A stretch of 13,195 nt of DNA from Pseudonocardiales bacterium (GCA_025465405.1 JAODNL010000578.1:1-13195); one strand, 5' to 3'; counted from the stretch's first letter, positions 288 to 9,526 are shown. Numbers and translations: made by a program. The notes: generated by a model not told the origin, from the sequence alone.

Positions 288-1076
288 TCAGGCCTGCTGT
301 GGCCCGCGTTGCCGGGTTCGCCGACGTCCTGCGAAGAGTCTCGCGGACAGCGTTACTGCTACTGCGGCGAGGCTGGCTGCGCGCCTCGTCCAGTCGGGTG
401 GAGCGCTGTCCCAACAGGCCATGAACAGGTAGCCCATTCCGATGAAGGCACTTCCCCATGCTACGGCGTGCGCACCGTTGACGAGGGCGAACATCCGGTA
501 GGAGACAGCGGAACCCGCTCGCGGGTCACCCGTCATCGCGTGAAGTGATGTCCATACCCGGCGACGCAGGGAAGTCCGCGGTTGCCATTCAGACCGCAGC
601 TTCGCCAGCCGTGCGCCGAAGCGGCGGCGAAGCAGGTATCCCGCGTTGTCGGAGGCGATGATCCAGCAGATGCCTCCGAGCATGGGCAGCCACAGACTGA
701 GGTGCTGCTGGAAGCCCAGGATGCCGCACAGGGCGCTGCCGCTGCGTCTGACGCCGGGTGGCGCGATGCGGGACGTCGTTCGCTTCGCCCCGGTCGTCAT
801 CGGCGTGGTGATCTGAGGGCTGAGCTTCGCGGGTGGGCAGTGCCGGCTGCTGTTCACGCAGCGGCGCACCTCGGGCGTAGCGTGGCGCTGGGCCGAGGGG
901 ACGACCGGCTCGTCGGCGTCGAGCAGGCCGCGCATCCCGGAGGCCAGCCAGAGACTGACGACCTCATCCCGACACGCCTCGCAGATCGTCAGGTGTGCGC
1001 GGACCGCGTGACTACCGCGTGGTCCCAGGGCATTCAGGACGAACGCGCCCACCCAGATCTGCATGTGGCACGTCAT
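288..1076 (-). CDS. Membrane-anchored anti-sigma factor with ZAS (zf-HC2) zinc-finger domain
   Basis: Within the 318-aa minus ORF, VRAHLTICEACRDEVVSL is an H-x3-C-x2-C motif, with Cys/His (MTCH) about 24 residues upstream. This is the zf-HC2/ZAS signature. Three hydrophobic segments follow: LCGILGFQQHLSLWLPMLGGICWIIA, MFALVNGAHAVAWGSAFIGMGYLF and AASLAAVAVTLSARLFA. Around 601-660, per-position GC is 85% at the third position of this frame and 55% at the second, which favours the minus strand over the antisense ORF 582..1346. The start is set at ATG 1076 (residue 57 of the ORF), which keeps the MTCH ligands and avoids a 104-nt overlap with the upstream gene. Codon bias weakens toward the 3' end, so the exact end and integrity are uncertain. 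Confidence 0.5.
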   Translation of the reverse strand: MTCHMQIWVGAFVLNALGPRGSHAVRAHLTICEACRDEVVSLWLASGMRGLLDADEPVVPSAQRHATPEVRRCVNSSRHCPPAKLSPQITTPMTTGAKRTTSRIAPPGVRRSGSALCGILGFQQHLSLWLPMLGGICWIIASDNAGYLLRRRFGARLAKLRSEWQPRTSLRRRVWTSLHAMTGDPRAGSAVSYRMFALVNGAHAVAWGSAFIGMGYLFMACWDSAPPDWTRRAASLAAVAVTLSARLFAGRRRTRQRGPQQA

Positions 1077-1140: not shown

Positions 1141-1614
1141 TCAATATTGGGACGGCGACGCGCCGACCGTCGGCAGGGTGGGGAGGGTGTTGTCGATTTC
1201 GTACCGCGCGGCCGGGCGCCGCGGTTGGATACGCCACGCGGCAAGTAGCACGATCAGGGATTCGGTGGAGATCGCGGCGACGCCGAGTGAGCAGTTCCAG
1301 TTTCCGACGTCGAGGGAATCTGTCGGCAGTCCGGTGGTGCGGCTGAGTACGTAGGCGAGAAGGGCGCCGCCGGCGATGGCGCTGGTCAGGGCCCAGACGA
1401 GCCGTCCGGGCAAAGTCAGCAGCATCGCGGCGGCGAGCACGGCCGCCACGACGAGCACAAAGTATCCGGAACCGATCACCGGGGTGGCTTGCAGGGTGCT
1501 CGGCAGATCAACGATATGGATGACCGCCACTGCCGTCAGGGCGATCGCGGCGGCGCCTCGAGTGAGGTGCTCGGACGGGATCCGCTCGAGGTGTTCGGGT
1601 TGCAGCGTGGGCAT
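1141..1614 (-). CDS. Small integral membrane protein (about 4 TM helices), function unknown, co-operonic with the ECF sigma factor
   Basis: 157-aa ORF with four hydrophobic helices (AAAIALTAVAVIHIV; VIGSGYFVLVVAAVLAAAMLLTL; LVWALTSAIAGGALLAYVL; SLGVAAISTESLIVLLAAW). A strong RBS AGGAGAG sits 5 nt before ATG 1614. Third-position GC is about 90% in this frame (1381-1440). It starts 34 nt after the sigma stop. Confidence 0.6.
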   Translation of the reverse strand: MPTLQPEHLERIPSEHLTRGAAAIALTAVAVIHIVDLPSTLQATPVIGSGYFVLVVAAVLAAAMLLTLPGRLVWALTSAIAGGALLAYVLSRTTGLPTDSLDVGNWNCSLGVAAISTESLIVLLAAWRIQPRRPAARYEIDNTLPTLPTVGASPSQY

Positions 1615-1648: not shown

Positions 1649-2161
1649 TCAGGTCAGGCGGCGCGAGTCCAGTTGCCGCCGGAGTTGGCAGAGCGCGTAG
1701 TGCAGACGCGAGCGTGCGGTTCCGGCCGGCACACCGAGCCGAGCCGCGGTGACATGCATCGGGATGCCGAGGAAGAAGGTCTCGACCAGGATCTGCTGGT
1801 GCGGCGGGGAGAGCTGTCGCATGGCGTCGAGGAGAATGGTCCGGTCGACCAACTGGTCGAGCCCGCCGTCGACGAACGCTTCGACGGTAGGTTCCGCGTC
1901 GCTCAGCATCGGCCGGGCCTGCGCCGCGCGAGTGGCATCGATGAGCAGCCGCCGGGTCACGCGGAGCAGCCAGGCCCGCACCGGGCGCTCGTCTTCGAGC
2001 AGCCCGGGCAGGTGGCGCCAAGCCCGCAGGAACGTCTCCTGGACGATGTCCTCCGCGCGCCCACGGTCCTGCGTGAAGCCCTCGGCGTAGGCCAGCAGTG
2101 CCTGGCCGTGTTCGGCGTACAGCACCTTGATCGCCTCATCGGCGTTCGGTTTGCTCAGCAT
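1649..2161 (-). CDS. ECF (sigma-70 family, group 4) RNA polymerase sigma factor
   Basis: Region 2 (VLYAEHGQALLAYAEGFTQDRGRAEDIVQETFLRAWRHL) and region 4 HTH (LSPPHQQILVETFFLGIPMHVTAARLGVPAGTARSRLHYALCQLRR) are both present. The start is placed at ATG 2161 (M13 of the listed ORF). The 12 upstream codons (2162-2197) are an AT-rich perfect palindrome with GC3 about 30%, which is not coding-like. Confidence 0.85.
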   Translation of the reverse strand: MLSKPNADEAIKVLYAEHGQALLAYAEGFTQDRGRAEDIVQETFLRAWRHLPGLLEDERPVRAWLLRVTRRLLIDATRAAQARPMLSDAEPTVEAFVDGGLDQLVDRTILLDAMRQLSPPHQQILVETFFLGIPMHVTAARLGVPAGTARSRLHYALCQLRRQLDSRRLT

Positions 2162-2197
2162 GTCTACTAACACGCTTAGTAGACGCGATACGTTCAA
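2159..2197 (-). promoter_or_regulatory. 39-bp promoter/operator cassette, copy A (minus-strand sense TTGAACGTATCGCGTCTACTAAGCGTGTTAGTAGACATG), ending in the sigma-factor ATG
   Basis: 34/39 identical to copy B at 3701-3739 on the plus strand. It contains a TTGAAC -35-like hexamer and the dyad. Its terminal ATG is the sigma start codon, which suggests a leaderless transcript. Confidence 0.5.
2162..2184. promoter_or_regulatory. Perfect inverted repeat GTCTACTAA-cacgc-TTAGTAGAC (9+5+9), a putative repressor operator abutting the sigma-factor start codon. It is part of the 39-bp cassette 2159-2197.
   Basis: Read directly from the sequence. It is an AT-rich island in about 70% GC DNA. The same TCTACTA-N7-TAGTAG dyad recurs at 3715-3735. 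The TAC..A/T..GTA dyad style resembles BlaI/MecI/CopY-family operators. Confidence 0.6.
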
Positions 2198-2227
2198 CCA
2201 TCCGTCACCGGCGGGGTTCGGCGTCTG

Positions 2228-3235
2228 TCAACGCGGTGCGATAGCGGAAACCTGCTGGAAGGCACTGATCGGCCGCCGCACGGGTGGCTGTGTCGCGGCG
2301 ACCGCCGCCGGAGTCAGGGCGACGAGCAGCGGCATCAGCCCGAGCACAGCGACCGCGGCGCGGACCGTCCTGCGGCGCCGTGGACTCAGCGAGGCAGGCG
2401 GCAGCAGCAGCCGGCGGATCCTCGTCACGGTGTCACCGTCGGCCGCGGCGAGGGTGGCTGACGACGCGCTGACCGGGGCCAGGCCGGCTCGGGCCGTGGC
2501 CACGGCCACGATCGCCGTGGCGAGCGTCTCGGGATCGTGACTGCATGCGGCCAGGTCGTCAGCGTGCAATTCCAGCAGGCGGCGGACCTGACGCGGCAGG
2601 TCGCGCATGAACGGAAGTTCCGGCAGGGCGCGGCCGGCCAGCGCGGCGCCGGCGAGCAGGCGATGGTGCCGGGCGCCGAGGTGTGCCCGCTCGTGCGCGA
2701 GCACAGCAGCCAGCTGCGGGCCGGTGAGCAGTTCGATCGTGCCGCTGGTCAGGATCACGGTGTTCGTGCGGCCGGCCAGGCAATAGGCAGCTGGCTGCGG
2801 CTGGTCGAGGATCACCGCTTCGAGTTCGGCGGCTCGCCGACCGCACAGAATGAGCAGGGTGCGCTGACGGCGGCGCTCTGTCAGCCGGCTCCGGACGACC
2901 TGAAGTGATGCCCAGCCGACGCGGGCCGCTATCGCGCCCGACAGCGTCAGGCCGGCACCGGCGACCGCGGCGCCGCCCGGCGTCACGTAGGCGGCGCGGA
3001 GCCGCAGGATGCACGCGCCGAGCAGGTGGCTGAGCCCGCTCGAGAGTGCGGTGCCGGGCAGGGCGACGGTGAGCCCGGCGAGGAACAGTGCGGCCAGCAC
3101 CGACCATGCAGCGGCCAGCAGCAGCGTCGCGCCGAGCCGCGGTGCGCGCGCCAGCCAGCCGTCGTAGCGATGCGCGAGCCGGCCGAGCGCAAGGAGAATC
3201 GCCGCGTAGACCAGCAGCGCGGCGCCGACCGTCAC
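2228..3235 (-). CDS. blaR: M56-family zinc metallopeptidase, BlaR1/MecR1-like signal transducer lacking the C-terminal penicillin-binding sensor domain
   Basis: HEXXH motif (AVLAHERAHLGARHH) lies between hydrophobic helices, and there are N-terminal TM segments (VGAALLVYAAILLALG; LGATLLLAAAWSVLAALFLAGLTVAL). GTG start 3235-3233 overlaps the blaI TGA stop (GTGA), a classic coupling arrangement. The 335-aa length is too short for a PBP-like sensor domain. Confidence 0.8.
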   Translation of the reverse strand: MTVGAALLVYAAILLALGRLAHRYDGWLARAPRLGATLLLAAAWSVLAALFLAGLTVALPGTALSSGLSHLLGACILRLRAAYVTPGGAAVAGAGLTLSGAIAARVGWASLQVVRSRLTERRRQRTLLILCGRRAAELEAVILDQPQPAAYCLAGRTNTVILTSGTIELLTGPQLAAVLAHERAHLGARHHRLLAGAALAGRALPELPFMRDLPRQVRRLLELHADDLAACSHDPETLATAIVAVATARAGLAPVSASSATLAAADGDTVTRIRRLLLPPASLSPRRRRTVRAAVAVLGLMPLLVALTPAAVAATQPPVRRPISAFQQVSAIAPR

Positions 3236-3630
3236 CGCTTGGCCCGGCCACGCCGTTGGGTGAGCGCCACGTCCAGCGCGTGGGCCAGTGCCTTCGCGTC
3301 GTCGGCGTCGATGTGCTCGACGAACCGCGCCAGCGCACCAGCGCGATCCGTGCTGCTCTCCAGCGCGTCGTTCATCAACTGGGCGGCGTAGCTCTCCCGG
3401 GTGAGCGCGGCCGAGTAACGCCAGGCGCGGCCATCGCGTTTCCGGGTCAGCCAGCCCTTGCGGTGCAGGTTGTCCATCACGGTCATCACGGTGGTGTAGG
3501 CCAGCGGCCGCTCCGGCTGAAGCTCGAAGACCACGTCGCGCACCAGCCGAGATGCGTCCGCGTCCCACAACAGCTCCATGATCGCCGCCTCGAGCTCGCC
3601 GAACGGACGGAGCCGGCGCGATTCAGTCAC
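3232..3630 (-). CDS. blaI: BlaI/MecI/CopY-family winged-helix transcriptional repressor (penicillinase-repressor family)
   Basis: 132 aa with ELEAAIMELLW ... LAYTTVMTVMDNLHRKGWLTRKRDGRAWRYSA, the hallmark HTH/wing of BlaI-family repressors. GTG start at 3630 is preceded by GAGGGG 8 nt upstream. The gene is followed by an overlapping M56 peptidase gene. Confidence 0.85.
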   Translation of the reverse strand: MTESRRLRPFGELEAAIMELLWDADASRLVRDVVFELQPERPLAYTTVMTVMDNLHRKGWLTRKRDGRAWRYSAALTRESYAAQLMNDALESSTDRAGALARFVEHIDADDAKALAHALDVALTQRRGRAKR

Positions 3631-3700
3631 GACTGGTTCCCCTCACGCCAGATAGCACGCATTGTGGCACCCCGCCGTTCAATCGCGGGACGACCGGAGC

Positions 3701-3739
3701 TTGAACGTAGCGCATCTACTAGCCGTGTTAGTAGTCATG
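3701..3739 (+). promoter_or_regulatory. 39-bp promoter/operator cassette, copy B (TTGAACGTAGCGCATCTACTAGCCGTGTTAGTAGTCATG), in the divergent blaI / haloperoxidase-like intergenic region
   Basis: 34/39 identical to copy A. It contains the dyad CTACTAg-ccgtg-tTAGTAG (3715-3735). It ends in ATG 3737-3739, which is in frame with the downstream gene. It lies 49 nt upstream of the RBS-linked ATG 3788 and 71 nt upstream of the blaI GTG on the other strand. Confidence 0.5.
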
Positions 3740-3774
3740 TCGCGTGACCGACCAGAGTCGCGTGACCGAGCAGA
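3739..3774 (+). repeat. Tandem 18-bp direct repeat, GTCGCGTGACCGACCAGA / GTCGCGTGACCGAGCAGA (17/18 identical), between cassette B and the RBS of the haloperoxidase-like gene
   Basis: Read directly. Each unit contains an imperfect dyad, GTCGC/GTGAC. It is followed by CAGATC-GGA-GATCTG (3771-3785), an inverted repeat that includes the GGAG RBS. Confidence 0.55.
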
Positions 3775-3787
3775 TCGGAGATCTGTC

Positions 3788-5113
3788 ATGACTTCCAAGC
3801 CCCGCCGCGCCGCGAGCTCGCCACGGCCCAGGCTCGCAGCCGCGCTGGCAGCCATCGCCGTGATCGGTGCCGCATCCCTGACCGGTCCGGCGAGCGCGGC
3901 CGAACCCGCCGCGGCCAATGCCGTCGGGCCAGCCGCACGCAACGTGGTCGTCGAATGGAACCGGACCCTGCTGTCACTCGTGCAGACTCCCGGTGCGCAA
4001 CCGCCCACCGTCCAGCCCACCCGCGACTTCGCGATCATGAGCGCGGCCGTCTACGACGCCGTCGACGCGATCGACCCCGACCGCCCGCAGTACCTGCTTC
4101 ACCTCGCGGCGAGCCACCGCGCATCGCAGGACGCCGCGGCCGCGCGGGCGGCGCACGACGTGCTGACCGCGCTGTTCCCGAACTTCACGGCCCCGCTCGA
4201 TCAGCAGCTGACCGCCGACCTCGCCACCATCTCGTCGGGGCCGGCCCGAACCGCGGGCGTTCAGGTCGGGGCGCGGGCCGCGGCCGAGCTGCTGCAGACG
4301 CGGGCGACGGACGGCTCCGCCTCGCCGCCGCCGCCCTACCTGAGCACCGGCGCCGCGGGCGACTACCGGCCGACCGCTCCCGGATTCGCGGCGCCGGTGT
4401 TCACCCACTGGGGCGCGGTGACGCCGTTCGTGCTGCGCCGCGGCGACCAGTTCCGCCCCGCGCCGCCCGCCGTGCTGAGCAGCCCGGCCTACGCCGCCGC
4501 GATCAACGAGGTGAAGAGCCTCGGCCGGGACACGAGCGCCACCCGGACCGCCGAGCAGACCACCATCGGCAGGTTCTGGGCCGCCCCGGTGCAGAACTAC
4601 TGGAACGCCATCGCCGGGCAGGTGGTGCTCGCCCACCATGACGACACCGACTCCTCAGCGCGCACCTTCGCCCTGCTCGACCTCGGTCTGGCCGACGCCA
4701 CCATCGCCCTCTACGACGCCAAGTACACCTACCGGCTGTGGCGGCCGATCACCGCGATCCGCCTCGCCGGCACCGACGGCAACCCGCTGACCGCCGCCGA
4801 TCCGTCCTGGACGCCGCTGGCCACGACGCCGGCTGACCCGTCCTATCCCGGCGCGCACAGCACCCTGAGCGCGGCAGCGGCAACGGTGCTCACCGCCCGG
4901 TACGGCGACGATGTCTCTTTCACCGTCAGCTCGCCGACCCTGCCCGGCGTCACCCGCTCCTTCGGAAGCTTCCGCGCCGCCGCGACCGAAGCCGGGCTGA
5001 GCCGGATCTACGCCGGCATCCACACCCGCCTCGACCACGCGGCCGGCCTCACCCTCGGCGACCAGGCCGGCCAATACGCCCTCGATCACGCGCTCAGCCA
5101 TGACCAGCACTGA
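3788..5113 (+). CDS. Secreted PAP2-superfamily protein, vanadium-dependent haloperoxidase-like / acid phosphatase-like
   Basis: RBS GGAG sits 8 nt before ATG 3788. The N-terminus is a Sec-type signal peptide (MTSKPRRAASSPRPRLAAALAAIAVIGAASLTGPASA/AEP). The PAP2/VHPO tripartite motifs are present: K-x6-RP (KYTYRLWRP), a PSGH-like box (PSYPGAHS) and SR-x5-H-x3-D (SRIYAGIHTRLD). FWAAP...NYWNAIA is typical of the haloperoxidase-like branch. Confidence 0.75.
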   Translation: MTSKPRRAASSPRPRLAAALAAIAVIGAASLTGPASAAEPAAANAVGPAARNVVVEWNRTLLSLVQTPGAQPPTVQPTRDFAIMSAAVYDAVDAIDPDRPQYLLHLAASHRASQDAAAARAAHDVLTALFPNFTAPLDQQLTADLATISSGPARTAGVQVGARAAAELLQTRATDGSASPPPPYLSTGAAGDYRPTAPGFAAPVFTHWGAVTPFVLRRGDQFRPAPPAVLSSPAYAAAINEVKSLGRDTSATRTAEQTTIGRFWAAPVQNYWNAIAGQVVLAHHDDTDSSARTFALLDLGLADATIALYDAKYTYRLWRPITAIRLAGTDGNPLTAADPSWTPLATTPADPSYPGAHSTLSAAAATVLTARYGDDVSFTVSSPTLPGVTRSFGSFRAAATEAGLSRIYAGIHTRLDHAAGLTLGDQAGQYALDHALSHDQH

Positions 5114-5963
5114 CCGCCGGGCCGGCGCCACCTGGGCCGACATCGACGCTGAGGACGGTCAGCCTCACGGCGTGCTTCTGATCCACGGCCAGCCCGGCTC
5201 GTCGCTGATCTGGAACCGGGTCCGTCCCCTGCTACGCGATCGCGGTTTGCGGGTCATGGCGGTTGACCGGCCCGGCTACGGCCACACCGGCGGCGACGCC
5301 CTGAACCAACTCGACAACGCCGCGGCGCTTGCCCGGCTCCTCGACGAGCGGCACACCCCACCGGCGGTGATCGTCGGGCACAGCCTCGGCGCGGGCATCG
5401 CGTTGGCCCTGGCAGCCGCCGCACCGCACCACGTGCGGGCGCTGGTGCTCGTCGCTCCGGCCGCAGGGCCGGCCGCGATCACCGCGACCGACCGCGCACT
5501 TGCCGCGCGCGTCGTCGGCCCGTCGTTGAGCTGGCTCGGATTCCGGACGGCCGGCCTGCTGCTGCACATTCCGGTGCTGCGCCGCCGAATCCTCATCGGA
5601 CGCGCGGGCCTGAGCGCAACCGACGCCGAAGAAGTCGTTCGCCGCATGACCCCCGGCGACGTCTGGCGCAGCTTCACCATCGAGCAGCGGCACCTGGTGC
5701 GCGATGCCCATGAGCTTCAGCAACGATTGGACGCGATCCGCTGCCCGGTCGTGATCGTCGCAGGCACCCGCGACCGGATCGTCCGCCCCCGGGTCGCGGC
5801 CGCGGTGGCCGGACAACTGCCCGAGGCATGCCTCATCACGACCGACGCCGGTCATCTCATCCCGGTCGACGACCCCGACGCGGTCGTAGACGCTGTGCTC
5901 CGCGCACTTCGCCTGGACTACCGGAAATCCCTGTCACCTCGTTCGGGCCAGCGAAATGCCTGA
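5100..5963 (+). CDS. Alpha/beta-fold hydrolase
   Basis: HG oxyanion motif (LLIHGQPGS), nucleophile elbow GHSLG, and a late D/H region (ITTDAGHLIPVDDP). ATG 5100 overlaps the upstream stop by 14 nt. Confidence 0.8.
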   Translation: MTSTDRRAGATWADIDAEDGQPHGVLLIHGQPGSSLIWNRVRPLLRDRGLRVMAVDRPGYGHTGGDALNQLDNAAALARLLDERHTPPAVIVGHSLGAGIALALAAAAPHHVRALVLVAPAAGPAAITATDRALAARVVGPSLSWLGFRTAGLLLHIPVLRRRILIGRAGLSATDAEEVVRRMTPGDVWRSFTIEQRHLVRDAHELQQRLDAIRCPVVIVAGTRDRIVRPRVAAAVAGQLPEACLITTDAGHLIPVDDPDAVVDAVLRALRLDYRKSLSPRSGQRNA

Positions 5964-7488
5964 ACCTCCCGCGGCATCCGTCACCGCGCCCGCCGACCCC
6001 CCGACGCCGCACCGCGCGGAGCGAGCCGTGTTACCCACCGGTGCGCTGCGACGCACGAGTCGCCTCGTCGCGCTCCCGTTACGCCATGCCGCGCGAGCGG
6101 CTACCGCGGCCAGCCGGCTGTCGGGCACGACCACCGAGCAGGTCGCCGCCCGCAGCGCCGAGCAGGTGTTCGCCACGCTCGGCGAACTCAAGGGAGGTGC
6201 CGCGAAGCTCGGGCAGGCACTGTCGGTGTTCGAAGCTGGGCTGCCCGAGGAGGTCGCGAAGCCCTACCGGTCAGCACTGAGCCGGCTCACCGATGCCACG
6301 CCGGCCATGCCGGCCGCGGTCGCCCGTCGCGTGGTAGCGACCGATCTGTCACTCGCCTACGGGACGGAGTGGCGTAACCGGCTCGTGGACTTCGGCGATG
6401 CGCCCGCGGCCGCGGCATCGATCGGCCAGGTACATCGCGGGCGATGGCGCGATGATCGCGGCAACATCGTCGATGTGGCGGTGAAGGTGCAGTACCCGGG
6501 AGTGGCCAAGGCGCTGCGCTCTGACCTGCGCACCGCGCACATGCTGGGTCGGGTGATGGCTCATGTAACTGGACTCGACATTGCCGGGCTGACCGACGAG
6601 CTGGCAGCGCGGATGATCGATGAACTGGACTACGTTCGCGAGGGTCGCGCGCAGAGTCAGGTCGCGGCCGCGTTCTCCCCGCGCGTCCCGCGAGCCCTGT
6701 GTGTGGCCCGCGCTGAGGGGGTGCAGGAGCCGCCGGGCCGCACCAGCGTCGTCGTCCCGCGGGTGTACGCCGCGATGCCGCACGTGTTGGTGACCACCTG
6801 GCTGGATGGGACGCCGCTGACGGCACTGCTGGACGGCGGCACCGATTCCCTTCCCACGGACTGGCAGGAGCTCGCCCGCGACGACGCGGCAAATCTGGCG
6901 GCTCGGCTGATCGGCCACGCGGCGTATGCCCCAGCGGCCTGCTCCGGCTGGATGCACGCCGACCCGCACCCGGGCAATTTCCTGCTGCTGCCCGGTCGAC
7001 GCCTCGGCCTACTGGACTTCGGATCGGTCGCAGCGATGCCCGGTGGACCGCCGGAACCGCTGGGACAGCTGGCGGTCGCGGTACTGGCCGATGACGGCCC
7101 GAGCGCCCTTCGGTGGGCCCGACAGGCCGGTGCGCTGGCCCAGGACGCGGCGGTCGAACCCGACCTGCTCATCGAACTACTTCATCCGATAGTGGCCCCA
7201 ACGGCGCAAGACAGCTTCACCTACTCACCGTCCTGGTTACGCGCCCTTTTGACCCACCTCACCCAATCGCGTTTCGCCGCTGTCAGACGGGAATTGACGA
7301 CGCCGCTCGAGTACGCACTCATCTGGCGCGGGGTGCTGTCGGCCGGGGGCCTGTACGCCCAGCTCGGCGCGACCGTACCCAGCCGCGCCTTCGAAATGGC
7401 GTATTCGCCTGGATTCCGCCACGCCGCCCTGTCCGCCGATCGGCACGAAGAGCCGCGGCGGCACGACTACAAGGAGTTGAGGTCATGA
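5956..7488 (+). CDS. ABC1/UbiB (AarF) family atypical protein kinase
   Basis: The ABC1 N-terminal block is present: LGELKGGAAKLGQALS, followed by the ATP-binding stretch ASIGQVHRGRW...VAVKVQYPG. The catalytic region reads HADPHPGNFLL...LGLLDFG. ATG 5956 overlaps the hydrolase stop by 8 nt. Confidence 0.85.
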   Translation: MPEPPAASVTAPADPPTPHRAERAVLPTGALRRTSRLVALPLRHAARAATAASRLSGTTTEQVAARSAEQVFATLGELKGGAAKLGQALSVFEAGLPEEVAKPYRSALSRLTDATPAMPAAVARRVVATDLSLAYGTEWRNRLVDFGDAPAAAASIGQVHRGRWRDDRGNIVDVAVKVQYPGVAKALRSDLRTAHMLGRVMAHVTGLDIAGLTDELAARMIDELDYVREGRAQSQVAAAFSPRVPRALCVARAEGVQEPPGRTSVVVPRVYAAMPHVLVTTWLDGTPLTALLDGGTDSLPTDWQELARDDAANLAARLIGHAAYAPAACSGWMHADPHPGNFLLLPGRRLGLLDFGSVAAMPGGPPEPLGQLAVAVLADDGPSALRWARQAGALAQDAAVEPDLLIELLHPIVAPTAQDSFTYSPSWLRALLTHLTQSRFAAVRRELTTPLEYALIWRGVLSAGGLYAQLGATVPSRAFEMAYSPGFRHAALSADRHEEPRRHDYKELRS

Positions 7489-8182: not shown

Positions 8183-9526
8183 ATGTTGGGTTACCACGTT
8201 CCAGCGCCCGATGAGGCGATGCTGATCTCCGGAGGCAAGGCCAGGGGCTCCGACGCGCCGTTCCGCGTGGTGACTGGTCGAGGCGCCTATGCCGCGCCGA
8301 TGTTTCGCAAGGTGCGGTTCATCACCCTATCGATGTCGGAGTCCGAGGTGGAAGAGAACTGTGTGACCAAGCAGGGCATCGCGCTGAAGGTCAAGGCCGT
8401 CATCGCGTTCAAGGTAGGTAATGACACCGAGTCCATCGTCAACGCATCGCAGCGCTTCCTCTCCGACCAGTCCCAGATGTCGGTGCTCACGGGCCGGATC
8501 TTCTCCGGTCACCTTCGCTCGATCATCGGCTCGATGACCGTCGAGGAGATCGTCACCGAACGGCAGAAGCTGGCCTCCGAGGTGCTCGACGGATCCAAGG
8601 AGGAGATGGCCAAGATCGGTCTCACGGTCGATGCGCTGCAGATCCAGTCCATCGACGATATGGGGCTGGGGTACATCGCCGCGATGGCAGCGCCGCACAA
8701 CGCGGCCATCCAGCGAGCAGCGAAGGTCGCGGCGTCGCAGGCCGATCAGGCGGCCGCGGAGGCTCAGCAGGCATCCCTGCGCGCCCAGGCCGAGTACGTC
8801 CGCCAGACCGAGATGGTCCAAGCCCAGTACGCCGCCGATGTGGAGGGAGCGAAGTCCGCCGCGGCCGCCACCGCTGCGGCGGCGGCCCAGGAGTCGGCGC
8901 GCAACCAAGCCAACTACGAGGCCCAGACCGCAGTCACCCGGTCGAAGGCGACCCAGGTAGCTGCCGAGGCGCAGCAGGAGTCCGACCGCAACCAGGCCGA
9001 CTTTGCCCGCCAAACCGCGGTCGCGAAGGCCACGTTCGCAGCCGAAACCCAAGCGGCGCAAGCCAAAGCCGACCAGTCCGGACCGCTGGCCCACGCCGTT
9101 GCGCAGCAGCAGGTGATCGATGCCCAGACGGCCCTGGCCCAGCGGCAGGCCGAACTGGCCCGCCAGACGCTTGTATCCACCGTCATCCGCCCCGCAGAGG
9201 CCGACGCCGAAAGGGTGAAGATCCTCGCCGCAGCCGACGCGGAGCGGACCAAGATCCTGGCCGAGGCGGCTCAATCCCACAACCGCGTCGCACTCGACCA
9301 ACAGATCATCGCCCAACTCCCGCTCATCGTGGAGAAGGCCGCGCAGGGTCTCGCCGGCGCCCACTTGACGGTGCTCAACGGATCAGAAGGAGTGACGGAG
9401 ATCGTCTCGTCACTGGTCGGTCAGGGGGTAGCCATCCTGGACTCGATCAAGCAAGGCGTAGCCGGCTCCAGCGAAGCCACAGACCGCCGATCCACCTCGC
9501 CGACAATAAAAGGCATCACTAACTAG
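8183..9526 (+). CDS. Flotillin-like SPFH/band-7 domain protein (FloT/YuaG-like) with Ala/Gln-rich coiled-coil region
   Basis: RBS AAGGAG sits 11 nt upstream of the ATG. PDEAMLISGG...FSGHLRSIIGSMTVEEIVTERQKLASEV aligns with the FloT SPFH core. A long AQ/EA-rich coiled coil with three degenerate repeats follows. There is no N-terminal hydrophobic hairpin. Confidence 0.85.
   Translation: MLGYHVPAPDEAMLISGGKARGSDAPFRVVTGRGAYAAPMFRKVRFITLSMSESEVEENCVTKQGIALKVKAVIAFKVGNDTESIVNASQRFLSDQSQMSVLTGRIFSGHLRSIIGSMTVEEIVTERQKLASEVLDGSKEEMAKIGLTVDALQIQSIDDMGLGYIAAMAAPHNAAIQRAAKVAASQADQAAAEAQQASLRAQAEYVRQTEMVQAQYAADVEGAKSAAAATAAAAAQESARNQANYEAQTAVTRSKATQVAAEAQQESDRNQADFARQTAVAKATFAAETQAAQAKADQSGPLAHAVAQQQVIDAQTALAQRQAELARQTLVSTVIRPAEADAERVKILAAADAERTKILAEAAQSHNRVALDQQIIAQLPLIVEKAAQGLAGAHLTVLNGSEGVTEIVSSLVGQGVAILDSIKQGVAGSSEATDRRSTSPTIKGITN

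What the first reader, a model, noticed from the sequence alone, without database searches (positions are those of the whole stretch)
2159..3739. Duplicated 39-bp promoter/operator cassette links the ECF sigma operon and the divergent blaI / haloperoxidase-like promoters
Two copies of TTGAACGTA(T/G)CGC(G/A)TCTACTA(AG/GC)CGTGTTAGTAG(A/T)CATG (34/39 identical) occur 1.5 kb apart in opposite orientations. Copy A (2159-2197, minus) ends exactly in the start codon of the ECF sigma gene. Copy B (3701-3739, plus) sits between the divergently transcribed blaI and the secreted PAP2/haloperoxidase-like gene. Each contains the AT-rich dyad TCTACTA-N7-TAGTAG (a perfect 9+5+9 palindrome in copy A) inside about 70% GC DNA, plus a TTGAAC -35-like hexamer. 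The half-site style (TAC..A / T..GTA) fits BlaI/MecI/CopY-family operators, and a BlaI homolog is encoded in between. The simplest reading is that BlaI represses its own operon, the sigma operon and the secreted-enzyme operon from one shared, recently duplicated control element. The TGAAC...GTT spacing also loosely resembles ECF-type promoters. If that holds, the element is a sigma-dependent promoter gated by a repressor, i.e. AND-type logic. Both cassettes end in ATG. For the sigma gene this implies a leaderless mRNA.
Basis: partly seen in the sequence, partly recalled or inferred. Interest (0 to 1): 0.8.

Follow-up and report, generated by a model that had tools for sequence, protein, structure and literature searches.

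The report
ECF promoter with embedded BlaI operator
The repeated 39-bp cassette is a promoter read by the neighbouring alternative sigma factor, with a palindromic binding site for the neighbouring BlaI repressor built into it. The same two-key switch controls a whole set of cell-envelope genes in many soil actinobacteria and does not appear in the literature I could search.

Summary
In detail: two inverted copies, 34/39 identical, none expected by chance.

The cassette is not a recent local duplication. It is a regulon-wide element, TGAAC-N17-CGTGnTAG, matching the published promoter of M. tuberculosis SigL, which is the closest solved relative of the window's sigma. The window holds three such promoters.

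The dyad TCTACTA-N7-TAGTAG(A/T) is laid over the spacer and -10 of the sigma and PAP2 promoters only. Its core, TACTA-N7-TAGTA, has the same half-sites and spacing as the conserved palindrome upstream of blaI in three mycobacteria. One relative carries a dyad with no -10 inside it.

An exact search for dyad plus -10 found at least 120 metagenome loci. In 102 of 112 unique sites the unqueried TGAAC sits at the right distance. The sites lie before the sigma gene, a small membrane protein, PAP2, ABC1 kinase, Lipoprotein_15 and others. In 40 of 42 sigma promoters the ATG sits 5-6 nt after the -10, so the mRNA is probably leaderless.

Best model: a sigma-dependent promoter gated by BlaI/BlaR, with sigma-driven blaI giving feedback. 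All binding and transcription steps are inferred.

The parts
2159..2197 (-). P_sig, a composite promoter-operator (copy A). The -35 TTGAAC is at 2197..2192, the -10 CGTGTTAG at 2174..2167, and the dyad TCTACTA-N7-TAGTAGA spans 2163-2183. The sigma ATG at 2161..2159 is the predicted leaderless start.
   Evidence: The orthologous sigma promoters in L001, L081, L082, L083 and L208 carry the same element. The ATG offset is conserved in 40 of 42.
1649..2161 (-). ECF sigma factor of SigL type, 170 aa.
   Evidence: Pfam Sigma70_r2 and Sigma70_r4. The closest PDB chain is M. tuberculosis SigL, 6dv9_F, E=1.4e-29, against 1.3e-10 for the next. The best NCBIfam model is NF007227, at 168 bits, below its cut-off of 202.
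1141..1614 (-). X, a 157-aa polytopic membrane protein co-transcribed with sigma. It has no family match. In relatives it is a regulon member, often with its own composite promoter.
288..1076 (-). Protein with a ZAS-type zinc-finger motif (HLTICEAC), a possible anti-sigma factor. It is found only in the window's closest relatives (L207, L208).
   Evidence: Pfam zf-HC2 E=2.9e-5. Weak NCBIfam anti-sigma hit. Translation. It is absent from L081-L083 and from the metagenome loci and present in L207 and L208.
2228..3235 (-). BlaR-like membrane zinc protease, 335 aa, with an HERAH motif and no penicillin-binding sensor domain. Its start overlaps the blaI stop.
   Evidence: Pfam Peptidase_M48. It has the same architecture and size as the mycobacterial gene downstream of blaI, which is 306-321 aa with M48 and weak M56 hits.
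3232..3630 (-). BlaI-family winged-helix repressor, 132 aa.
   Evidence: Pfam Penicillinase_R E=2.5e-26. The closest PDB chain is M. tuberculosis BlaI, 2g9w, E=8.6e-19. Both proteins read LAYTTVM at the stretch I take to be the start of the recognition helix.
3652..3682 (-). P_blaI, a third sigma-type promoter with no dyad. TTGAAC is at 3682..3677, followed by N17, then CGTGCTAT at 3659..3652. It drives blaI-blaR through a short leader that carries a GAGGGG Shine-Dalgarno sequence.
   Evidence: The window has 3 matches to TGAAC-N17-CGTGnTA against 0.10 expected. The equivalent blaI-directed promoters occur in L001, L081-L083 and about 30 metagenome loci.
3701..3739 (+). P_pap, a composite promoter-operator (copy B). 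TTGAAC is at 3701-3706, the -10 CGTGTTAG at 3724-3731, and the dyad TCTACTA-N7-TAGTAGT spans 3715-3735. An ATG at 3737-3739 lies at the predicted transcription start.
3788..7488 (+). Probable operon driven by P_pap: a secreted PAP2/haloperoxidase-like protein (3788-5113, in frame from 3737), an alpha/beta hydrolase (5100-5963) and an ABC1 atypical kinase (5956-7488), with overlapping stop and start codons.
   Evidence: In relatives PAP2 and ABC1 kinase sit directly behind their own copies of the composite element, and the hydrolase follows sigma-X in L081.

Best explanation
The cassette is a composite control element.

(1) It is a promoter for the locally encoded SigL-type ECF sigma factor: -35 TGAAC, a 17-nt spacer and -10 CGTGnTAG. 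The window has three of these, in front of the sigma operon, of PAP2-hydrolase-ABC1 kinase, and of blaI-blaR.

(2) Two of the three (sigma and PAP2) also carry a 21-bp dyad, TCTACTA-N7-TAGTAG(A/T). It covers roughly -23 to -3 and so includes the -10. It is most probably the operator of the adjacent BlaI repressor, which when bound would keep the sigma-RNA polymerase off the promoter.

(3) Transcription therefore needs both sigma present and BlaI absent. BlaI removal is presumed to follow cleavage triggered by the co-encoded sensor-less BlaR-type protease, in response to an unknown envelope signal.

(4) Sigma amplifies itself from a leaderless mRNA that starts at the A of its ATG. It also drives blaI-blaR from a promoter with no operator (window clade) or a weakened one (other clades), which gives negative feedback.

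Shown: the sequence motifs, their positions, and their conservation and co-occurrence with the genes. Inferred: who binds what, the direction of regulation, the transcription start and the signal.
For: Promoter:
- TGAAC-N17-CGTGTTAG matches the published SigL consensus: -35 TGAACC and -10 CGTGTC (PMC2703886), refined to C-14 G-13 T-12 G-11 N C/A A-8 G-7, with 4-7 nt between the -10 and the start all functional (PMC6372665).
- The window's sigma is far closer to SigL than to any other solved sigma.
- The window has exactly 3 matches against 0.10 expected. No sigma-70-type promoter is found in 2100-3850.
Of 112 unique sites, 102 have the unqueried TGAAC exactly 8 nt upstream and 6 have it 9 nt upstream.
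- In 600 kb of related loci there are 212 such promoters. They sit before sigma, blaI, X, PAP2, ABC1 kinase, Lipoprotein_15, FtsH-like, YceI, DUF929 and MpaB genes.

Dyad as a separate operator:
- All 42 sigma-directed promoters have xxTACTA. None of about 30 blaI-directed promoters does. The four from the window clade (window, L081-L083) have no left half at all.
- L136 has a perfect TCTACTA-AGATTCG-TAGTAGA with no CGTG inside it, 10 nt upstream of the -35 of its blaI promoter.

BlaI as the binder:
- blaI-blaR is adjacent in the window and in L001, L081-L083, and lies within 4 kb of the site in roughly 50 of the 120 metagenome loci; most of the other contigs are too short to tell.
- M. tuberculosis, M. 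immunogenum and M. moriokaense each carry one TACGAC-N5-GTAGTA (that is, TACGA-N7-TAGTA) 44-62 nt upstream of blaI. Only 1 match occurs in 870 kb of unrelated loci.
- The window BlaI and Mtb BlaI share the sequence LAYTTVM in the wHTH region.

Leaderless start: the ATG lies 6 nt after the -10 G in 39 of 42 sigma promoters and 5 nt after it in 1.
Against: - There are no experimental data for this system. Binding of BlaI to the dyad, and of the sigma to the promoter, is inferred from sequence alone.
- In the wider metagenome clade the inner CTA of the left half is at least 93% conserved in nearly all promoters, including the blaI-directed ones. Part of the 'dyad' could therefore be an intrinsic promoter feature.
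- The right half overlaps -10 positions (A-8, G-7) that SigL itself prefers, so its conservation does not discriminate.
- The published M. tuberculosis BlaI footprint paper (Sala et al. 2009) is not held. The link between the mycobacterial palindrome and BlaI binding rests on my recollection plus the conservation shown here.
- By strict analogy with SigL (6-nt spacer) the start would be the T, not the A, of the ATG. A 5-nt spacer is needed.
- A co-transcribed membrane protein (X, or an unrelated-looking 'Y' in 27 of 38 loci) and, in the window, a ZAS-motif protein may be anti-sigma factors. BlaI need not be the main control.
Confidence: 0.68

Rival explanations
1. The whole 39-mer, dyad included, is simply an extended promoter recognised by the sigma-RNA polymerase. 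No repressor binds it. The symmetry is a by-product of the -10 (TAG) plus a conserved spacer element (CTA).
For: Inner CTA and TAGTAG are conserved in almost all 81 unique non-query promoters of the wider clade. A-8 and G-7 belong to the SigL -10 consensus.
Against: - ECF sigma factors are not known to read the spacer (established knowledge).
- The symmetry extends over 7+7 bases.
- The conserved blaI-directed promoters of the window clade lack the left half entirely.
- A perfect dyad exists without the -10 in L136.
- The same dyad geometry sits upstream of mycobacterial blaI genes where no TGAAC...CGTG promoter is present.
Confidence: 0.15
2. The cassette is a BlaI operator on ordinary (housekeeping-sigma) promoters, recently duplicated within this locus, from which BlaI represses its own operon, the sigma operon and the PAP2 operon.
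For: The dyad resembles BlaI-family operators, and blaI lies between the copies.
Against: - No sigma-70-type -10 is present.
- The TGAAC and CGTG blocks are invariant across hundreds of sites.
- The element is ancient and regulon-wide.
- blaI has its own dyad-less promoter.
Confidence: 0.05
3. The cassette is a small mobile or repetitive palindromic element (MITE- or REP-like) that happens to lie in intergenic DNA. Alternatively, its dyad acts as an RNA hairpin, for example as an attenuator of read-through from blaR into sigma.
For: It is a short palindromic repeat present in many copies per genome (for example three in L167). Copy A lies downstream of blaR on the same strand.
Against: - It always points towards a gene, and in the sigma-directed copies sits at a fixed distance from the start codon.
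- It occupies orthologous positions in distant genomes.
- RNA folding is no better than shuffles (z = -0.94 and -0.41).
- No U-tract follows the dyad, and the one terminator-like hit in 2100-3850 lies elsewhere, inside blaR at 3200-3219. There is no Rfam match.
- For leaderless genes the dyad lies upstream of the transcript.
Confidence: 0.03

Closest known systems
M. tuberculosis SigL promoters (P-sigL, pks10, Rv1139c; SigL-RslA system)
   Same: The promoter architecture is the same: TGAAC(C) at -35, CG-TGn(C/A)AG at -10, and an autoregulated sigma gene. The window's sigma is closest to SigL among solved structures. The window clade also has a ZAS-motif protein downstream, as SigL has RslA.
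   Different: - The base at -9 is T rather than C/A.
- The sigma scores below the NCBIfam subfamily cut-off and has 29-34% identity to mycobacterial relatives.
- No BlaI operator is reported in SigL promoters.
- The mRNA is leaderless.
- The regulon (PAP2, ABC1 kinase, Lipoprotein_15 and others) and the partner genes (blaI-blaR) are different.
M. tuberculosis BlaI-BlaR (Rv1846c-Rv1845c) regulon
   Same: - Repressor family: 2g9w is the best PDB hit.
- A sensor-less M48/M56 protease lies immediately downstream.
- Palindrome geometry: TAC(G/T)A-N7-TAGTA.
   Different: - In mycobacteria the palindrome lies in front of blaI itself, and no ECF sigma gene is adjacent.
- Here it is embedded in the promoters of an ECF sigma and its targets, while blaI's own promoter lacks it (window clade) or has a degenerate copy.
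- The outer bases differ: TCTACTA here against ATACGAC.
Staphylococcus/Bacillus BlaI-MecI-CopY operators (TACANNTGTA)
   Same: Dyad operators that overlap promoter cores, bound by winged-helix dimers that are inactivated by proteolysis. The CTAC core of the mecA half-operator (ATAAGACTACAT) resembles TCTACTA.
   Different: The spacing is different. There are 4 nt between CTAC and GTAG in mec, against 11 nt here. The canonical TACANNTGTA is absent.
ECF sigma factors controlled at the level of their own transcription (S. coelicolor SigE by CseBC; ECF203/TetR and ECF265/PadR predictions)
   Same: A separate sensor-regulator pair encoded next to the sigma gene governs its transcription (reviews PMC7826278 and PMC8999054).
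   Different: - The regulator here is a BlaI/BlaR proteolytic switch. Neither BlaI, M56 nor M48 is mentioned in the main text of those two papers.
- The operator is present not only at the sigma gene but across the regulon.
- The sigma in turn drives the regulator genes.

Membership tests
SigL-type ECF sigma-dependent promoter | -35 TGAAC(C) and -10 CGTG(N)(C/A)AG, separated by about 16-17 nt | tested here: met
   Three window sites match TGAAC-N17-CGTGnTA against 0.10 expected. Position -9 is T rather than C/A.
SigL-type ECF sigma-dependent promoter | Lies upstream of the cognate, SigL-like sigma gene (autoregulation) and upstream of other regulon genes | tested here: met
   The sigma is closest to SigL. 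42 orthologous sigma genes carry the promoter. There are 212 promoters in 600 kb of related loci.
SigL-type ECF sigma-dependent promoter | Transcription depends on the sigma, and the start lies 4-7 nt after the -10 | not testable with these tools
   This needs in vitro transcription, 5'-RACE or a sigma deletion. The only support here is the conserved 5-6 nt distance to the ATG.
BlaI/MecI/CopY operator, canonical firmicute form | Central palindrome TACANNTGTA within a 24-30 bp dyad | tested here: not met
   The sequence is TCTACTA-N7-TAGTAGA and contains no TACANNTGTA.
BlaI operator, actinobacterial form | Palindrome TAC(G/T)AC-N5-GT(A/C)GTA, as conserved upstream of mycobacterial blaI | tested here: met
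   The core TAC(G/T)A-N7-T(A/C)GTA matches both window dyads and occurs once in each of L204-L206, just upstream of blaI. It occurs once in 870 kb of control loci. The bases flanking the core differ. That this palindrome is the footprinted BlaI site is recalled from Sala et al. 2009, which I could not verify.
BlaI operator, actinobacterial form | A BlaI-family repressor and a BlaR-type protease encoded nearby | tested here: met
   for the window. for relatives.
BlaI operator, actinobacterial form | Specific binding by BlaI, and derepression on BlaI cleavage | not testable with these tools
   Needs EMSA or footprinting, ChIP, and a blaI deletion.
Leaderless mRNA | The start codon coincides with the transcription start, there is no Shine-Dalgarno sequence, and the distance from the -10 is fixed | tested here: inconclusive
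   For sigma the ATG is 6 nt after the -10 G in 39 of 42 and 5 nt after it in 1 of 42, with no room for a Shine-Dalgarno sequence. The start itself is not mapped. For PAP2 the downstream ATG at 3788, which has a GGAG, is the more likely start.
MITE/REP-like repeat | Copies in variable orientation and position relative to genes, with target-site duplications | tested here: not met
   All copies point at a downstream gene, and the sigma-directed copies sit at a fixed distance from the start codon.

The most novel reading that the evidence does not exclude
A widespread actinobacterial signalling module in which an ECF sigma factor and a BlaI/BlaR proteolytic switch are wired into one activator-repressor loop. 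Every regulon promoter is a two-key element, with sigma recognition and the BlaI operator superimposed on the same 30 bp. Sigma activates itself and its own repressor. BlaI/BlaR, rather than (or in addition to) a classical anti-sigma factor, decides when the envelope regulon fires. The regulon includes a secreted PAP2/haloperoxidase-like enzyme, ABC1 kinase, FtsH-like protease and Lipoprotein_15 proteins. This would be a mode of ECF control absent from the two ECF classification and review papers I searched.
Probability: 0.45. Interest if true: 0.7.

Novelty: new variant of a known kind. Interest (0 to 1): 0.55.

Why it matters
ECF sigma factors and BlaI/BlaR switches are two of the main ways bacteria sense trouble at the cell envelope, and they are normally described as separate systems. 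Here they appear fused at the level of the promoter itself, in a form conserved across many uncultured and cultured soil Actinomycetota.

If confirmed, this would:
- add a repressor-gated class to the known modes of ECF regulation;
- give sensor-less BlaR/BlaI pairs, which are common in actinobacteria and mostly unexplained, a defined output;
- supply a compact natural AND-gate promoter of about 40 bp that includes the start codon;
- define a regulon whose functions hint at lipid or envelope remodelling.

There is also a practical point. Gene callers routinely extend this sigma ORF to the TTG of its own -35 box, giving database entries of 182-194 aa against a true length of about 170 aa.

Tried and rejected
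- The single genome-contig scan, made with the sigma protein, returned mostly distant paralogues. Only L001 was informative. Upstream regions of L002-L030 share no common promoter, so they could not serve as controls without BlaI.
- Sala et al. 2009 (the M. tuberculosis BlaI regulon and footprints) is not held. Papers citing it give no motif text. I replaced it with a direct comparison of three mycobacterial blaI upstream regions.
- A literature search on the sequence strings returned only irrelevant hits.
- No BlaI-, M56- or M48-linked ECF group appears in the main text of the ECF classification and review papers. Their supplements were not searched.
- An exact look-up of the window's BlaI found no record.
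- L207 was unusable for the promoter because its first 122 nt are unrelated to the window, so the contig end is probably chimeric.
- The RNA-structure reading, the sigma-70 promoter reading and the mobile-repeat reading were each considered and rejected.
- My ORF-picking heuristic for downstream genes mis-framed some high-GC genes. I therefore report only clusters confirmed by BLAST to window proteins or by Pfam.
Full report
**1. Observation**

Copy A is at 2159-2197 on the minus strand. Copy B is at 3701-3739 on the plus strand. They are 34/39 identical.
- The degenerate 39-mer has only these two matches in the window. None of 200 dinucleotide-preserving shuffles produced even one.
- The pair is the longest inverted repeat in the window and extends to 48 nt at 81%.
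- The dyad CTACTA-N7-TAGTAG occurs exactly at these two places.
- Window GC is 69.5%.

**2. Genes**

On the minus strand, from right to left:
- blaI (3232-3630, Penicillinase_R);
- a 335-aa BlaR-like M48 zinc protease with no sensor domain (2228-3235, its start overlapping the blaI stop);
- copy A;
- a 170-aa ECF sigma (1649-2161);
- a 157-aa membrane protein X with no family match (1141-1614);
- a protein with a ZAS motif, HLTICEAC (about 288-1076).

On the plus strand, after copy B:
- a PAP2/haloperoxidase-like secreted protein (3788-5113, in frame from 3737);
- an alpha/beta hydrolase (5100-5963);
- an ABC1 kinase (5956-7488).

The stops and starts of the plus-strand genes overlap, so they probably form one operon.

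**3. The cassette is a SigL-type ECF promoter**

Among solved structures the sigma is closest by far to M. tuberculosis SigL (E=1.4e-29, against 1.3e-10 for the next). The published SigL promoter is TGAACC at -35 and CGTGTC at -10 (PMC2703886). It was refined to C-14 G-13 T-12 G-11 N (C/A) A-8 G-7, with 4-7 nt to the start all functional (PMC6372665).

Both copies read TGAAC-N17-CGTGTTAG. A search for TGAAC-N17-CGTGnTA finds exactly three sites in the window against 0.10 expected. It reads TTGAAC-GGCGGGGTGCCACAATG-CGTGCTAT, points at blaI, has no dyad, and is followed by a short leader with a GAGGGG Shine-Dalgarno sequence. No sigma-70-type promoter is detected in 2100-3850.

**4. Relatives**

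The genome-collection scan with the sigma protein gave one useful relative, L001, an Actinomycetota MAG with 50% identity. Protein searches showed that sigma and BlaI homologues share contigs in many metagenomes, in Pseudonocardiales MAGs, in Jatrophihabitans sp. DSM 45814 and in Kribbella spp..

In L001, L081, L082 and L083 the layout is blaR<-blaI, divergent from sigma. X and PAP2 follow sigma in L082, X and an alpha/beta hydrolase follow it in L081, and PAP2 follows it directly in L083. The intergenic region holds two divergent TGAAC-N17-CGTGTTA promoters:
- The sigma-directed promoter always carries the full dyad TCTACTA-N7-TAGTAG, followed by (C/T)ATG.
- The blaI-directed promoter has no left half in L081-L083 (GCTGCTG, GCCGCCG, TCCGCCG) and a degenerate one in L001 (TCCGCTA).

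In the window PAP2 occupies the divergent position, and the sigma operon sits downstream of blaR with its own copy. A 96%-identical metagenome contig (L208) shares this arrangement.

**5. Regulon-wide distribution**

I ran an exact metagenome search for TCTACTANNCGTGTTAGTAG, which specifies the dyad and the -10 but not the -35.
- Of 112 unique sites with enough upstream sequence, 102 have TGAAC exactly 8 nt upstream of the dyad, which gives an N17 spacer. Six have it 9 nt upstream.
- The sites lie in front of sigma, X, PAP2 and many other genes. Several contigs carry two or three sites.
- Downstream genes confirmed by BLAST or Pfam include ABC1 kinase (28 sites), Lipoprotein_15 secreted-repeat proteins (28), an FtsH-like protease, YceI, DUF929, an MpaB/Lcp-type oxygenase, an ABC ATPase and SPFH.

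Copies in other genomes are as similar to copy A or B (34-35/39) as A is to B. The element is therefore an old regulon motif kept by selection, not a recent local duplication.

**6. The dyad is separable from the promoter**

An unbiased scan for TGAAC-N17-CGTGnTA in 600 kb of related loci found 212 promoters.
- The 42 sigma-directed promoters all have xxTACTA as the left half.
- None of the roughly 30 blaI-directed promoters does. They read TGTTCTA, TACTCTA and similar.
- In the wider clade the inner CTA is at least 93% conserved in all classes, while the outer bases degrade. The blaI promoters there may be weak operators. This is also the main argument for the rival view that part of the dyad is promoter-intrinsic.
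- Against that rival, the four window-clade blaI promoters lack the left half completely.
- L136 carries a perfect TCTACTA-AGATTCG-TAGTAGA with no CGTG inside it, 10 nt upstream of the -35 of its blaI promoter.

**7. BlaI as the binder**

The classical BlaI/MecI/CopY core TACANNTGTA (PMC1935004) is not present. The M. tuberculosis footprint paper is not held. I therefore retrieved the blaI loci of M. tuberculosis, M. immunogenum and M. moriokaense.
- Each has one TACGAC-N5-GTAGTA, that is TACGA-N7-TAGTA, 44-62 nt upstream of the blaI ATG.
- The pattern TAC(G/T)A-N7-T(A/C)GTA matches the window dyads too. It occurs only once in 870 kb of unrelated sigma loci.
- The window BlaI is closest to M. 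tuberculosis BlaI (2g9w, E=8.6e-19). Both read LAYTTVM in the wHTH region.
- The mycobacterial loci also encode a 306-321-aa sensor-less M48/M56 protease directly downstream, like the window.

My recollection that Sala et al. footprinted a TAC(G/T)AC-N5-GT(A/C)GTA motif fits these data but is unverified.

**8. Leaderless start**

In 39 of 42 sigma promoters the ATG begins 6 nt after the G that ends the -10, and in one it begins 5 nt after. This corresponds to a 5-nt or 4-nt spacer, within the range shown to work for SigL. Database gene models of 182-194 aa start at the TTG of the -35 or further upstream and are probably over-extended.

For PAP2 the picture differs. The ATG at 3737 is in frame, but a GGAG-preceded ATG at 3788 opens a twin-arginine-type signal peptide. 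PAP2 genes behind the same element start about 53-54 nt downstream of it in two of the four relatives; the predicted offsets in the other two are 12 and 26 nt.

**9. Other readings**

- RNA folding of either cassette is no better than shuffles (z = -0.94 and -0.41).
- There is no Rfam match in the window.
- No U-tract follows the dyad, and the one terminator-like hit in 2100-3850 lies inside blaR, not at either dyad.
- The fixed orientation of all copies towards a gene, and the fixed distance of the sigma-directed copies from the start codon, argue against a mobile repeat.

**10. Model and caveats**

Best model (confidence about 0.68): SigL-type promoters carry a BlaI operator over the spacer and -10 at the sigma gene and its targets. 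Transcription then needs sigma present and BlaI removed, presumably through BlaR-triggered proteolysis in response to an unknown envelope signal. Sigma feeds back positively on itself. It feeds back negatively through blaI-blaR, whose promoter lacks the operator or has a weak copy.

Caveats:
- Nothing here has been tested experimentally.
- I cannot say the sigma lacks an anti-sigma factor. X follows it in the window clade. A translationally coupled 160-190-aa polytopic membrane protein with no family match ('Y') follows it in 27 of 38 other loci. The window clade adds a ZAS-motif protein.

**11. Novelty**

Each component is known: SigL-type promoters, actinobacterial BlaI/BlaR and leaderless mRNAs. 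The conserved superposition of the two recognition elements across a regulon is not mentioned in the main text of the ECF classification and review papers I could search. Neither is the linkage of an ECF sigma with BlaI/BlaR. Those papers list two-component systems and TetR- or PadR-type repressors as transcriptional controllers. I rate this a new variant of a known kind, of moderate-to-good interest and directly testable in cultured carriers.

Noticed in passing
window 3652-3682 (-): A third sigma-type promoter, TTGAAC-N17-CGTGCTAT, points at blaI. It has no dyad and is followed by a leader of about 15 nt with a GAGGGG Shine-Dalgarno sequence.
   Followed up: yes
window 3737-7488 (+): PAP2, alpha/beta hydrolase and ABC1 kinase have overlapping stop and start codons (5100/5113 and 5956/5963). 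They are probably one operon behind copy B. In relatives PAP2 and ABC1 kinase each have their own copy of the composite element.
   Followed up: partly
window 288-1076 (-): This ORF has a ZAS-type HxxxCxxC motif (HLTICEAC), a zf-HC2 hit and a weak NCBIfam anti-sigma hit. It is present only in the closest relatives (L207, L208) and not in other carriers of the module.
   Followed up: partly
window 1141-1614 (-); L081 6568-7137; L082 6580-7014; many metagenome loci: X is a small polytopic membrane protein with no Pfam or NCBIfam match. It is co-transcribed with sigma in the window clade. Elsewhere it sits about 75-80 nt (predicted start) behind its own composite promoter.
   Followed up: partly
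27 metagenome loci, e.g. L089, L090, L105, L132, L153, L166, L177: A different 160-190-aa polytopic membrane protein ('Y', no family match) overlaps the sigma stop codon by 1-20 nt. The translational coupling makes it a candidate unconventional anti-sigma factor.
   Followed up: no
L136 1428-1448: A stand-alone perfect dyad, TCTACTA-AGATTCG-TAGTAGA, with no -10 motif inside it, lies 10 nt upstream of the -35 of that contig's blaI promoter.
   Followed up: partly
L084 5368-5400; also L125, L134, L140, L143, L144, L148: In one class of targets the right half-site is repeated in tandem (TAGTAGATAGTAGAT). This suggests a third half-site or a second, overlapping operator.
   Followed up: no
Database entries P0002-P0120; window ORF 1649-2197: Many deposited models of this sigma are 182-194 aa, against about 170 aa for the version that starts at the conserved ATG. 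The 182-aa form starts at the TTG of the gene's own -35 box.
   Followed up: partly
L207 1-122: The first 122 nt of this Pseudonocardiales MAG contig do not align with the window, although the rest is 96% identical. This is a probable chimeric contig end, and it gives the deposited sigma an unrelated N-terminus.
   Followed up: partly
window 8753-9022 (+): Three diverged 63-nt direct repeats (62-71% identical) lie inside the SPFH/flotillin-like gene (8183-9526). They presumably encode a repeated coiled-coil segment.
   Followed up: no
window 7177-7195 (+): A dyad-like sequence, CTACTTCATCCGATAGTGG, has 2 mismatches to the dyad pattern. It lies inside the ABC1 kinase gene with no promoter motif and is probably chance.
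   Followed up: no
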